Origin: Escherichia coli
GTDB lineage: Bacteria > Pseudomonadota > Gammaproteobacteria > Enterobacterales > Enterobacteriaceae
Direction: 5' to 3' (one strand)
Length of the DNA: 64,000 nucleotides
NCBI RefSeq assembly: GCF_001677475.2
Contig: NZ_CP015229.1
Shown here in pieces: positions 33,001 through 36,000 of the stretch. Position numbers: made by a program. Position 1 is the stretch's first letter; each line of letters begins with the position of its first letter.

Positions 33001-36000
33001 ATCTTTTTCCAGATAACCAGGGGATTCTCCCCCTAAATCAAGCTGTAGCGTTATTCTTTCATACCCTTTATCTATGAGATGGTTCAACCTCGTTGTTGAA
33101 AGAGTTTCATCCAGTTCATTGGCTTTAGCTTCGCGTAGTAAATCAGAAATAAAAAAAGAGTCTTTCTTCGAGAGTAAGTTCGACAAACGTTCCAGTCCCG
33201 AGGTCACCAGTGCAACGGAAGATGTGTTTAATCGGGCATCTTCTTCCCACGCTCCAGAATCTTCCATAACATAGAAATTGGCTTTATCCAGATAAGCAAC
33301 CAACAGCGCAATCGATTTTAATCGGTCACCTTTTTCCCAGTCTTCAGCGTTAATAGTACCAGTGTCGATTGCTTGTATAAGGAGATCAAGATAAAGACCT
33401 AAAGCATCATTTTGTTTATGGTTCCACAGCTGCGGCTTGCCTTCTTCCTGCACATCTGCCATCACGGGGGAGTTGCTGTCAAATCGGATATGTACAGCAT
33501 TCATTTGCCCAGGAATACCATCCAGTCGTTTTGGGTTGCTAATGACGTCCTGCATCCGCTTAATCTGGTCGGGCGTAGACATATAATCCCACAGAGTGAG
33601 CAGAACCTTTTTTGCGGCTACACTATTTCCCTGATCTGATACTAATGCCATATAGCCCCATAAACTATCCCTCAGCCAGACAGCATCATAGTGGGTTTCT
33701 GCCGCTGTTTTGTCATCTTCGAAAGTAGAAGCAAGAATAAATGTTCCCCAGGGTTTCTCCGTCAACGTTAACTTTCGTGTATTTTCTGTTAATGTTAACA
33801 ATCCTTGAATTTCGTCTTTGGTATAGTGGCTCTTTATTTCATTTTTTAATTTGGCTGAGTGAATCAGAAGACGATAATTAGGATACTTATCTGGATTTAA
33901 CGATAAATAACTTTTATCAGTTGCTGCCCCCGTGGAATTAAGAATGTTAAATACAGATTCACTCGTCACTTCTGCCCCTGTTGCCTGGCATGTGCCGCAT
34001 GAAAATATACCAGCGAGCAGAAGAGTTAATGTAGATTTCCCTTTCATAAAAGATTCCATCAATCGTTTGTTAAAAGCGTAGATAACCACTTATTTAACAA
34101 CTTGAAAATAAGGTATTTTACCTGGGTTGTTACAAATGAATTGCATTGCGTAAACGCTTTTATTTACAAAAAAATGGGGAAGCATTACGGCGATTGCGAA
34201 AAGTCTGAAGCGATTGAATTAAGATAATATAGAAAATCAGATACAACTAAAATGGCAGGTTGATGAGGTGAAGATAAATTGGAGCGGGCGAAGGGAATCG
34301 AACCCTCGTATAGAGCTTGGGAAGCTCTCGTTCTACCATTGAACTACGCCCGCTTCGAGATGCGTAAGGCATTATAAACCTTACGCTCTCCTTAGCAAGT
34401 GCCGCGCTGCTGACTGCTGATTAATTCGCCATCAGCATTTTGGCTTGCTGCCCTGAGGCGGCAAGTAACGTAGCGGATCAATTGCCGTTGCACGGTAACG
34501 AATCTGGAAATGCAGGCGAACAGATGCCGCATCAGTGCTCCCCATAGTGGCGATTTTTTGCCCAGCCTTCACGCTTTGCCCATTATTTACCAGCATCGTG
34601 TCATTATGGGCGTAAGCCGTAATGTAATCTTCACTGTGTTTAATCATGATGAGATTACCGTAGCCACGCAGCTGGTTGCCCACATACACCACCTTTCCTG
34701 CACCCGCGGCGTAAATAGGTGTACCCCGTGGAGCTGAGATATCAATCCCTTTATTGCCGCCATCAGCTGTCGAATACGGCATGATAACTTTCCCTGTCGT
34801 TGGCCATAACCAACAACGTTGCCCTACTGGCGGCCAGGAAGATTTCGGTACCGCTGATGAAGGTGTAACCGATGCGGTTTTGGTCGTTGATTTGATGGTT
34901 GATTTACGTGTACTACTGCTATTTTTCGCCCCACCCAGTTTTAGTTTCTGACCAACTTCAATGGTGTAAGGGGGTGAAATGCCGTTCAGTCGCGCAAGTT
35001 CTTTTACGCTGGTTCCCGTGGTGCGCGAAATACGATATAGCGTATCCCCCCGTTTCACGGTGTAAACGGAGCCGGAATACGTTCCTGTATCGGATGATTT
35101 GCTACCCGAACAGCCCGCCAAAAGCAGACCAACCGATAACAACATCACGATACCCAGAGATTTTTTATTCAGGCGTCCCGCACTCAAAATCTTTCCTCGC
35201 TTAAAAAACAAGACGCCATATCATAGCAGCCAGCCTCTGGATACCCAATCTCTTGCTTCTGGAAAAACGCGGTAATAGAGAAAGAGGTTAATTTCATTTG
35301 GCAAAGGGAAGTATCATCAGCAAAATATTCGCTGCAGAGGTATCGAAGTTCCTGACTTTTACCCTATTTCCATCCTGATGCGTAATAATCCTGATTTATC
35401 ACATTGATTTTATCGCCACTCATATTGATACGTATCACTGTCCCTATTCAGGGTCCTGTTTCGTATCATATCTGTGTTTTTTTAACGTCATCACACTTCC
35501 TTCCTCCCCTAACGCTTATCGTCGTTTCTGGCGTAAATCTTGCCTGCTTAGACTAAATCTTTGCCATAAGAACCAAATGTTCAAATCGAGGGGATTTCTA
35601 TGGAAGCGCGGGAAGCAACCGCTACGGGTGAATCTTGCATGCGCGTCGATGCCATTGCTAAGGTCACCGGGCGGGCACGATATACTGACGATTATGTTAT
35701 GGCGGGCATGTGTTACGCGAAATATGTACGTAGCCCTATCGCACATGGTTATGCCGTAAGTATTAATGATGAACAAGCCAGAAGTTTACCAGGCGTACTG
35801 GCGATTTTTACCTGGGAAGATGTACCTGATATCCCATTCGCTACAGCTGGGCATGCCTGGACACTTGACGAAAACAAGCGGGATACCGCCGATCGCGCAC
35901 TGCTAACTCGCCATGTTCGTCACCATGGTGACGCCGTTGCCATCGTTGTGGCCCGTGATGAACTCACGGCAGAAAAAGCGGCGCAATTGGTCAGCATTGA

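What the first reader, a model, noticed from the sequence alone, without database searches (positions are those of the whole stretch)
35600..35641. Possible 13-codon N-terminal extension of XdhA
An in-frame ATG at 35600 is preceded by a good Shine-Dalgarno (GAGGGGA, about 5-nt spacing), whereas the usual start (MRVDAIAK..., 35639) has a weaker one. The annotated start may be wrong or alternative.
Basis: seen in the sequence. Interest (0 to 1): 0.2.

Follow-up and report, generated by a model that had tools for sequence, protein, structure and literature searches.

The report
True start codon of xdhA
The E. coli xanthine dehydrogenase gene xdhA almost certainly starts 13 codons upstream of the start given in the curated K-12 reference record, a small annotation correction that NCBI's automatic annotation of other E. 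coli genomes already makes.

Summary
ATG 35600 is in frame with xdhA and is the first canonical start codon after an in-frame stop. It lies 5 nt after GAGGGGA (35588-35594). The second ATG (35639, MRVD...) has a weaker Shine-Dalgarno match (-3.8 vs -8.0 kcal/mol).

- In 25 orthologous loci from eight enterobacterial genera, the upstream ATG and its Shine-Dalgarno site are conserved.
- The 12 codons after it vary mostly at third positions, just like the downstream coding sequence. The 90 nt upstream diverge freely with no periodicity.
- The "usual" Met14 codon is CTG or TTG in Trabulsiella, TTG or TTA in Buttiauxella, and AAA in Hafnia and Enterobacillus. TTA and AAA cannot start translation.
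- Gly10, inside the extra segment, is invariant. It aligns with a conserved Gly in solved homologues, where Met14 aligns with an internal Leu.

This is not new. RefSeq/PGAP already annotates the 765-aa form, including on a K-12 MG1655 assembly, and the NCBIfam XdhA model covers the segment. Only the curated MG1655 record, and protein-database entries with that sequence, keep 752 aa.

I found no experimental start-site data, probably because the operon is sigma-54-dependent and rarely expressed in the laboratory. Minor extra initiation at 35639 is not excluded. Verdict: a real, ordinary and already known annotation discrepancy of low interest.

The parts
35528..35544 (+). Sigma-54 (-24/-12) promoter element CTGGCGTAAATCTTGCC of the xdhABC operon. 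It places both candidate start codons inside the transcript.
   Evidence: Sequence read. The identical 17-mer is listed as a sigma-54 ChIP-seq site upstream of xdhA in Bonocora et al. 2015 (PMC4591121). TGGC-N7-TTGC is present upstream of xdhA in 33 of 36 fetched loci.
35588..35594 (+). Shine-Dalgarno sequence GAGGGGA serving the upstream start (5-nt spacer TTTCT).
   Evidence: Duplex energy with the anti-SD is -8.0 kcal/mol here and -6.1 to -11.0 in all 25 orthologous loci. Columns -11..-6 are much more conserved than the surrounding non-coding DNA.
35600..35602 (+). Most likely true initiation codon (ATG) of xdhA.
   Evidence: First canonical start after in-frame TAA 35567-35569. Invariant in 25 loci of 8 genera. 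It is the PGAP CDS start in GF43, JB41, ST131, LWY24 and a K-12 MG1655 assembly.
35600..35638 (+). The 13 N-terminal codons MEAREATATGESC that are missing from the curated K-12 annotation. This is coding sequence, and it includes the invariant Gly10.
   Evidence: Third-position-biased divergence (pos1/2/3 = 0.154/0.122/0.504; permutation p about 1e-5; pN/pS 0.35). G10 is invariant in 16 orthologues. NCBIfam NF007426 aligns from residue 5 and NF043082 from residue 10. Solved homologues align from residues 8-10 with the Gly conserved.
35639..35641 (+). Met14 codon, which is the start in the curated MG1655 record. It is most likely an internal residue.
   Evidence: Replaced by CTG/TTG (Trabulsiella), TTG/TTA (Buttiauxella) and AAA (Hafnia, Enterobacillus). 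Aligns with an internal Leu in 1t3q_B and 7dqx_A. Weak SD match of -1.9 to -5.7 kcal/mol.
35600..37897 (+). xdhA coding sequence, 765 aa plus stop (molybdenum-binding subunit of xanthine dehydrogenase).
   Evidence: ORF list. NCBIfam NF007426 scores 1482.7 bits against a cut-off of 916. Pfam finds Ald_Xan_dh_C, MoCoBD_1 and MoCoBD_2.
37908..38786 (+). xdhB (FAD-binding subunit), the next gene of the operon. Included for context only.
   Evidence: ORF 37908..38786, 292 aa. The corresponding gene is annotated xdhB in GF43 and MG1655.

Best explanation
The 39 nt at 35600-35638 are the real 5' end of the xdhA coding sequence.

Proposed sequence of events:
1. The xdhABC mRNA is made from the sigma-54 promoter at 35528-35544. 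This promoter is shown by published ChIP-seq.
2. The 30S subunit pairs with GAGGGGA (35588-35594) and initiates at ATG 35600. This step is inferred from conservation.
3. The product is a 765-aa XdhA.

Its first roughly 7 residues form a variable tail. Residues 8-15 (ATGESCMR) belong to the conserved N-terminal xGxxxxR segment of molybdenum-hydroxylase large subunits. Met14 is an ordinary internal hydrophobic residue.

The 752-aa start in the curated K-12 MG1655 record is therefore a start-site mis-call by 13 codons.
For: (1) Both annotations exist. NC_000913.3 gives 752 aa. PGAP gives 765 aa from this ATG in five E. coli records, including a K-12 MG1655 assembly. The long K-12 protein is seen on at least 1000 contigs and the short one on 51.

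(2) The upstream ATG and its SD are conserved in 25 loci from 8 genera. SD energy is -6.1 to -11.0 kcal/mol at the long start in every locus, against -1.9 to -5.7 at the short start.

(3) The substitution pattern is that of coding sequence. Diversity at codon positions 1/2/3 is 0.154/0.122/0.504 in extension codons 2-13 and 0.152/0.123/0.501 in codons 34-73. The excess of position 3 over positions 1 and 2 is 0.366, against at most 0.051 in any upstream 36-nt window (permutation p about 1e-5). pN/pS is 0.35.

(4) The short start is impossible or poor in relatives. Codon 14 is CTG or TTG in Trabulsiella, TTG or TTA in Buttiauxella, and AAA in Hafnia and Enterobacillus. Each of these has its own ATG with an SD further upstream.

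(5) Homology extends into the segment. G10 is invariant in 16 orthologues while M14 is not. NF007426 aligns residues 5-765 to model positions 2-761, and NF043082 aligns 10-765 to 2-758. In 1t3q_B and 7dqx_A, G10 aligns with Gly, M14 with Leu and R15 with Arg.

(6) The 91-nt stretch is present at 95% identity or more in 5320 of 5426 complete E. coli genomes.
Against: There is no direct experimental evidence either way.
- No N-terminal peptide or start-site profiling signal for xdhA was found in the supplements held for TRAINSPOTTER, TetRP or Giess 2017.
- The Ribo-RET tables are not held.
- The INRI-seq constructs contain only 30 nt upstream of the annotated start, so they cannot test the -39 ATG.

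In E. coli itself both ATGs exist, so comparative data cannot exclude some initiation at 35639.

pN/pS in the extension (0.35) is higher than downstream (0.12). The first residues are therefore only weakly constrained.

PGAP starts are predictions partly guided by the same family models, so agreement between them is not fully independent evidence.

The AlphaFold model was too poor to say whether the segment is structured.
Confidence: 0.9

Rival explanations
1. Dual initiation. ATG 35600 is the main start, but E. coli and its close relatives also initiate at ATG 35639. This would give a second, 752-aa proteoform lacking the first 13 residues.
For: Both ATGs are present in Escherichia, Citrobacter, Kluyvera, Atlantibacter, Yokenella, Klebsiella indica and Pluralibacter. 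A weak SD-like GGGTGA or GGGGAA lies 7 nt upstream of the second ATG, with -3.8 to -5.7 kcal/mol in some species. In-frame internal starts are known in E. coli from Ribo-RET and INRI-seq studies.
Against: The SD-like string is simply the Gly-Glu/Asp codons, and its third positions drift freely. The Met codon is lost in four genera without any compensating start. A 752-aa form would lack the invariant Gly10. In the predicted mRNA fold the second ATG is paired, although the fold is no more stable than shuffled sequence (z = 0.39). No signal for it was found in the data held.
Confidence: 0.07
2. The curated K-12 annotation is right. Translation starts only at ATG 35639, and the upstream 39 nt are a conserved untranslated leader, for example a regulatory RNA element or protein-binding site.
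For: The curated MG1655 record and the 752-aa entries in protein databases use this start. The upstream region belongs to a sigma-54-regulated leader, where conserved regulatory sequence would not be surprising.
Against: The 3-nt periodicity of divergence matches that of the coding sequence, with Gly10 and Cys13 varying only at the third position. TTA and AAA at codon 14 in Buttiauxella B2, Hafnia and Enterobacillus rule out this start there. There is no significant RNA structure (z = 0.39) and no Rfam family in the region. Family models and solved homologues align into the segment.
Confidence: 0.03

Closest known systems
RefSeq/PGAP model of E. coli XdhA (e.g. WP_000388150.1, 765 aa; NCBIfam NF007426 equivalog)
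   Same: The start codon, length and sequence are identical. The window's ORF 35600..37897 corresponds exactly to the PGAP CDS in GF43, JB41, ST131, LWY24 and a K-12 MG1655 assembly. NF007426 aligns residues 5-765.
   Different: Nothing differs. The finding reproduces this annotation.
Curated K-12 MG1655 XdhA (b2866, NP_417342.1 / AAC75904.1, 752 aa)
   Same: It is the same gene and the same protein from Met14 onward.
   Different: It starts 39 nt downstream. It lacks MEAREATATGESC and therefore the invariant Gly10. This start codon is not conserved in Trabulsiella, Buttiauxella, Hafnia or Enterobacillus.
Large (molybdopterin-binding) subunits of the xanthine oxidase / molybdenum hydroxylase family with solved structures (quinoline 2-oxidoreductase 1t3q_B, 6-hydroxypseudooxynicotine dehydrogenase 7dqx_A, PaoC 5g5g_C, 4-hydroxybenzoyl-CoA reductase 1rm6_A)
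   Same: The domain order is the same: a/b hammerhead, then MoCoBD_1, then MoCoBD_2. The N-terminal xGxxxxR segment precedes the hammerhead domain. G10, M14 and R15 align with Gly, Leu and Arg in 1t3q_B and 7dqx_A.
   Different: The first roughly 7 residues (MEAREAT) have no counterpart and vary among enterobacteria. Overall the relationship is distant (E = 1e-102 to 1e-45). No structure of E. coli XdhA itself is in the PDB copy searched.
Alternative in-frame translation initiation sites mapped in E. coli by Ribo-RET / INRI-seq
   Same: There are two in-frame ATGs 39 nt apart, each with some SD-like sequence upstream.
   Different: No experimental signal links xdhA to this class. The INRI-seq construct excludes the upstream ATG, and the comparative data favour a single conserved start.

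Membership tests
XdhA, xanthine dehydrogenase molybdenum-binding subunit (NCBIfam NF007426, equivalog) | Whole-protein score above the curated cut-off (916 bits), with end-to-end coverage of the model | tested here: met
   1482.7 bits. Residues 5-765 align to model positions 2-761 of 761.
Xanthine oxidase / molybdenum hydroxylase large subunit | Domain architecture Ald_Xan_dh_C (a/b hammerhead) + MoCoBD_1 + MoCoBD_2 | tested here: met
   PF01315 at residues 23-139, PF02738 at 159-397 and PF20256 at 423-700, all far above their gathering scores.
Xanthine oxidase / molybdenum hydroxylase large subunit | Encoded next to FAD-binding and [Fe-S]-binding subunit genes | tested here: met
   ORF 37908..38786 follows xdhA. 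The collinear region of GF43, which matches window 34279-56000 at 98.4% identity, and the MG1655 record both carry xdhB and xdhC directly downstream.
Canonical Shine-Dalgarno-led bacterial start site (for ATG 35600) | ATG/GTG/TTG preceded at 4-9 nt by a purine-rich stretch complementary to the 16S rRNA 3' end | tested here: met
   GAGGGGA, a 5-nt spacer, then ATG. Energy is -8.0 kcal/mol here and -6.1 to -11.0 kcal/mol in 25 of 25 orthologous loci.
Protein-coding sequence under purifying selection (for 35603-35638) | Divergence concentrated at third codon positions, pN/pS below 1, and no stops or frameshifts among orthologues | tested here: met
   Diversity at pos1/2/3 is 0.154/0.122/0.504. 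Permutation p is about 1e-5 and pN/pS is 0.35. The alignment of the segment across the 25 loci of eight genera is ungapped.
Genes with two functional in-frame start sites (alternative N-terminal proteoforms) | Experimental initiation signal (start-site ribosome profiling, toeprint or N-terminal peptide) at both codons | not testable with these tools
   No usable data were found. Conservation argues against a selected second start.
Sigma-54-dependent operon | GG-N10-GC (-24/-12) element upstream of the gene that is bound by sigma-54 | tested here: met
   CTGGCGTAAATCTTGCC lies at 35528-35544. The same 17-mer is a sigma-54 ChIP-seq site assigned to xdhA (PMC4591121). The motif is conserved in 33 of 36 loci. 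Binding itself is taken from the paper and was not tested here.

The most novel reading that the evidence does not exclude
E. coli and its nearest relatives might make two XdhA proteoforms: 765 aa from ATG 35600 and 752 aa from ATG 35639. The shorter form would lack the invariant Gly10 segment. It could therefore assemble or mature differently with XdhB/XdhC, giving a regulated pool of differently active enzyme.
Probability: 0.05. Interest if true: 0.3.

Novelty: already known. Interest (0 to 1): 0.1.

Why it matters
The practical consequence is small. The curated K-12 MG1655 record, and the protein-database entries with the same 752-aa sequence, probably describe an XdhA that is 13 residues too short and lacks an invariant glycine of the family's N-terminal segment. 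Expression constructs, mass-spectrometry search databases and structure predictions built from that entry would therefore use a truncated protein. Anyone purifying or modelling E. coli XdhABC should use the 765-aa form. No new biology follows, because NCBI's automatic annotation and its XdhA family model already use the long form.

Tried and rejected
- **Experimental start-site evidence.** I searched the supplements held for TRAINSPOTTER N-terminomics, TetRP and Giess 2017 and found no xdhA entry. The Ribo-RET preprint has no supplements held, and the journal version is not held.
- **INRI-seq.** It lists only downstream non-annotated peaks for xdhA (+60, +76, +127). Its constructs carry just 30 nt upstream of the annotated start, so the -39 ATG was never present. 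The row for the annotated start is in a table that was cut when stored.
- **Literature on the start or on purified enzyme.** Searches gave nothing relevant.
- **AlphaFold2.** The model built from a 16-sequence orthologue alignment had mean pLDDT 64, with residues 1-32 all below 50. It says nothing about the N-terminus, and I did not run fold searches on it.
- **RNA structure in the leader and extension.** The fold of 35555-35690 is no more stable than shuffles (z = 0.39), and there is no Rfam family apart from the tRNA. The 'conserved untranslated RNA element' reading was rejected.
- **Out-of-frame ORF 35577..35759 (60 aa).** Its ATG is not conserved outside Escherichia and some Citrobacter loci, and the divergence periodicity fits the xdhA frame. 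Rejected as a gene.
- **A mistake of mine.** My first sigma-54 pattern used the wrong spacer (N8) and missed the site. The corrected N7 pattern found it.

Full report
**What is in the sequence**

The window around 35600 reads ...TAA GAA CCA AAT GTT CAA ATC GAG GGG ATT TCT ATG GAA GCG CGG GAA GCA ACC GCT ACG GGT GAA TCT TGC ATG CGC GTC GAT....

- ATG 35600-35602 opens the ORF 35600..37897 (765 aa).
- The nearest in-frame stop upstream is TAA 35567-35569. No ATG, GTG or TTG lies between it and 35600.
- GAGGGGA occupies 35588-35594, 5 nt before the ATG.
- The second in-frame ATG is at 35639-35641 (MRVDAIAK...). It is preceded only by GGGTGA, which is the Gly-Glu codon pair.
- The computed pairing energy with the 16S rRNA 3' end is -8.0 kcal/mol for the first site and -3.8 kcal/mol for the second.

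**What the gene is**

The ORF is xdhA, the molybdenum-binding subunit of E. coli xanthine dehydrogenase.

- NCBIfam NF007426 scores 1482.7 bits against a cut-off of 916.
- Pfam finds the a/b hammerhead domain followed by two MoCo-binding domains.
- xdhB and xdhC follow directly downstream.
- The window is E. coli DNA: 99.6% identical to strain GF43 over 701 nt and about 97% to K-12.

**How the start is annotated elsewhere**

The two candidate starts correspond to two annotations that coexist in public records.

- The curated K-12 MG1655 record NC_000913.3 gives xdhA as 3000345..3002603, which is 752 aa starting at MRVD.
- NCBI's PGAP pipeline gives 2298 nt (765 aa) starting at the ATG that equals window 35600. 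This holds in strains GF43, JB41 (K-12-like), an ST131 isolate and LWY24, and even in another assembly of K-12 MG1655, NZ_CP010438.1 (protein WP_000388150.1).
- In the protein collection, the K-12 long form is named 'MULTISPECIES... XdhA [Enterobacteriaceae]' and is seen on at least 1000 contigs. The short form (AAC75904.1, also in UniRef) is seen on 51.

The 'extension' is thus already the standard RefSeq model. The short form is an annotation that survives in the curated K-12 record and in database entries with that sequence.

**Comparative test**

A scan of one genome per species returned 32 loci. I lined up the start regions of 30 of them.

In 25 sequences (the window and 24 loci), the ATG, an SD (AAGGGGA, GAGGGGA, AGGAGA or similar) and an ungapped 13-codon segment are all present. 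These come from Escherichia, Citrobacter, Kluyvera, Atlantibacter, Yokenella, Klebsiella indica, Trabulsiella and Pluralibacter.

Mean pairwise diversity per column over these 25 sequences:

| Region | Position 1 | Position 2 | Position 3 |
|---|---|---|---|
| Extension codons 2-13 | 0.154 | 0.122 | 0.504 |
| Codons 34-73 (undisputed coding) | 0.152 | 0.123 | 0.501 |

- The 90 nt upstream show diversity of 0.52-0.66 with no periodicity. The SD hexamer is the exception and stands out as conserved.
- The excess of position 3 over positions 1 and 2 is 0.366 in the extension, against at most 0.051 in any 36-nt upstream window. None of 100,000 column permutations reached that value (p about 1e-5).
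- Gly10 (GGN) and Cys13 (TGY) vary only at the third position.
- pN/pS is 0.35 in the extension and 0.12 in the next 60 codons. This indicates purifying selection that is weaker than in the core, as expected for an N-terminal tail.
- The SD energy at the long start is -6.1 to -11.0 kcal/mol in all 25 sequences. At the short start it is -1.9 to -5.7.

**The short start is not conserved**

Codon 14 differs among the relatives:

| Organism | Codon 14 |
|---|---|
| Trabulsiella guamensis and one T. odontotermitis | CTG |
| The other T. odontotermitis | TTG |
| Buttiauxella agrestis and B. izardii | TTG |
| Buttiauxella sp. B2 | TTA |
| Hafnia paralvei and Enterobacillus tribolii | AAA |

TTA and AAA cannot initiate translation, and CTG does so very poorly. 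Each of these genomes has its own ATG with an SD further upstream: MSERMG..., MSDITD..., MSLGSPLKRVD and MSTGLSAVGSPFKRVD.

In a 16-sequence protein alignment, G10 is invariant and M14 is not.

**Homology reaches into the segment**

- NF007426 aligns residues 5-765 to model positions 2-761.
- The second XdhA equivalog, NF043082, aligns residues 10-765 to positions 2-758.
- Solved homologues align from residues 8-10.
- In quinoline 2-oxidoreductase (1t3q_B, SIGTSVLRRED) and 6-hydroxypseudooxynicotine dehydrogenase (7dqx_A, IGQEVLRRED), Gly10 aligns with Gly, Met14 with Leu and Arg15 with Arg.

Met14 therefore behaves as an internal hydrophobic residue of a conserved xGxxxxR segment that precedes the hammerhead domain, which Pfam starts at residue 23. 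A protein starting at Met14 would lack the invariant glycine.

**Within E. coli**

The 91-nt stretch 35575-35665 is present at 95% identity or more in 5320 of 5426 complete genomes. The only difference inside the 39 nt among the five E. coli sequences aligned is TCT versus TCA, a synonymous Ser change.

**Most likely mechanism**

1. The operon is transcribed from a sigma-54 promoter. The 17-mer CTGGCGTAAATCTTGCC at 35528-35544 is the sigma-54 ChIP-seq site assigned to xdhA by Bonocora et al. 2015 (PMC4591121). A TGGC-N7-TTGC element sits upstream of xdhA in 33 of the 36 loci fetched. In every start region examined it lies upstream of the long-form ATG, so that codon is always in the transcript.
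2. Initiation then occurs at ATG 35600 through the conserved SD. This step is inferred.
3. The leader plus the first codons show no unusual RNA structure (z = 0.39), and no Rfam family was found there.

The activator is thought to be YgeV, and the putative YgeV regulon is rarely active under laboratory conditions (PMC10602906). That probably explains why no start-site or N-terminal peptide data for xdhA could be found.

**What remains open**

- All the evidence is comparative or annotation-based.
- PGAP and the NCBIfam models are not fully independent of each other.
- In E. coli both ATGs exist, so a minor 752-aa product cannot be excluded. I put that at about 7%.
- I put the possibility that the short start is the only one at about 3%.
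- The AlphaFold model from the shallow orthologue alignment was too poor to help (mean pLDDT 64, residues 1-32 below 50).

**Verdict**

The finding is already known, because the long form is the standard RefSeq annotation and is covered by NCBI's curated family model. It matters only as a curation note for the K-12 reference record and for people who express, model or search for XdhA. Interest is low.

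Noticed in passing
window 35528-35544: A sigma-54 -24/-12 promoter element, CTGGCGTAAATCTTGCC, lies 56 nt upstream of ATG 35600. 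It is identical to the published sigma-54 ChIP-seq site for xdhA. TGGC-N7-TTGC is conserved upstream of xdhA in 33 of 36 loci, from Escherichia to Hafnia and Enterobacillus.
   Followed up: yes
window 30000-34270 and tRNA-Gly(ccc) at 34280-34353 (- strand): The DNA upstream of glyU carries type III secretion genes (sctC, an HTH regulator, a GhoT/OrtT-family toxin and a GH15 protein), which looks like the ETT2 island. Only 982 of 5261 matching E. coli genomes cover at least 80% of this 4.3-kb stretch, so it is partly deleted in most strains.
   Followed up: partly
L040 (E. coli GF43, NZ_CP172127.1) positions 1-18816, compared with the window upstream of 34279: The closest match to the xdhA region, strain GF43, carries a different insert at the same tRNA-Gly: an integrase, AlpA, antirepressors, a DUF927 protein and large hypothetical proteins. 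The window shares only 34279-56000 with it (98.4% identity). glyU is therefore a variable integration hotspot.
   Followed up: partly
L039 (E. coli fS149a, NZ_CM176575.1) 1501-2905: In this strain the match ends 56 nt into the query (window 35575-35630), and an IS1A element follows shortly after. Next comes idi, so the whole xdhA...ygfU purine/selenium gene cluster appears to have been deleted by IS1.
   Followed up: no
L028 (Trabulsiella odontotermitis strain 01) and L036 (Citrobacter sp. NCU1): xdhA appears disrupted in both. The L028 reading frame contains 19 stops when translated straight through. The L036 protein diverges into nonsense after about residue 60. These are either pseudogenes or assembly errors.
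   Followed up: no
L034 (Terrisporobacter mayombei assembly, 459-nt contig, coverage 0.77): A tiny, low-coverage contig in a Clostridia genome assembly encodes a fragment 97% identical to E. coli XdhA residues 544-695. This is most likely E. coli contamination of the assembly.
   Followed up: no
L018 (Citrobacter sp. MGH106) and L029 (Citrobacter freundii M-21): In L018 the xdhA protein is 96% identical to E. coli's and the upstream leader is E. coli-like. L029 has the same extension peptide as the Atlantibacter loci and a near-identical upstream region. The cause may be mislabelled genomes or horizontal transfer of the cluster.
   Followed up: no
window 35634-35641 compared with K-12 (alignment A1 column 156): K-12 and most relatives read GAATCATGCATG, which creates an extra out-of-frame ATG 4 nt before the Met14 codon. 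The window has TCT instead of TCA, a synonymous Ser change, and lacks that ATG.
   Followed up: no
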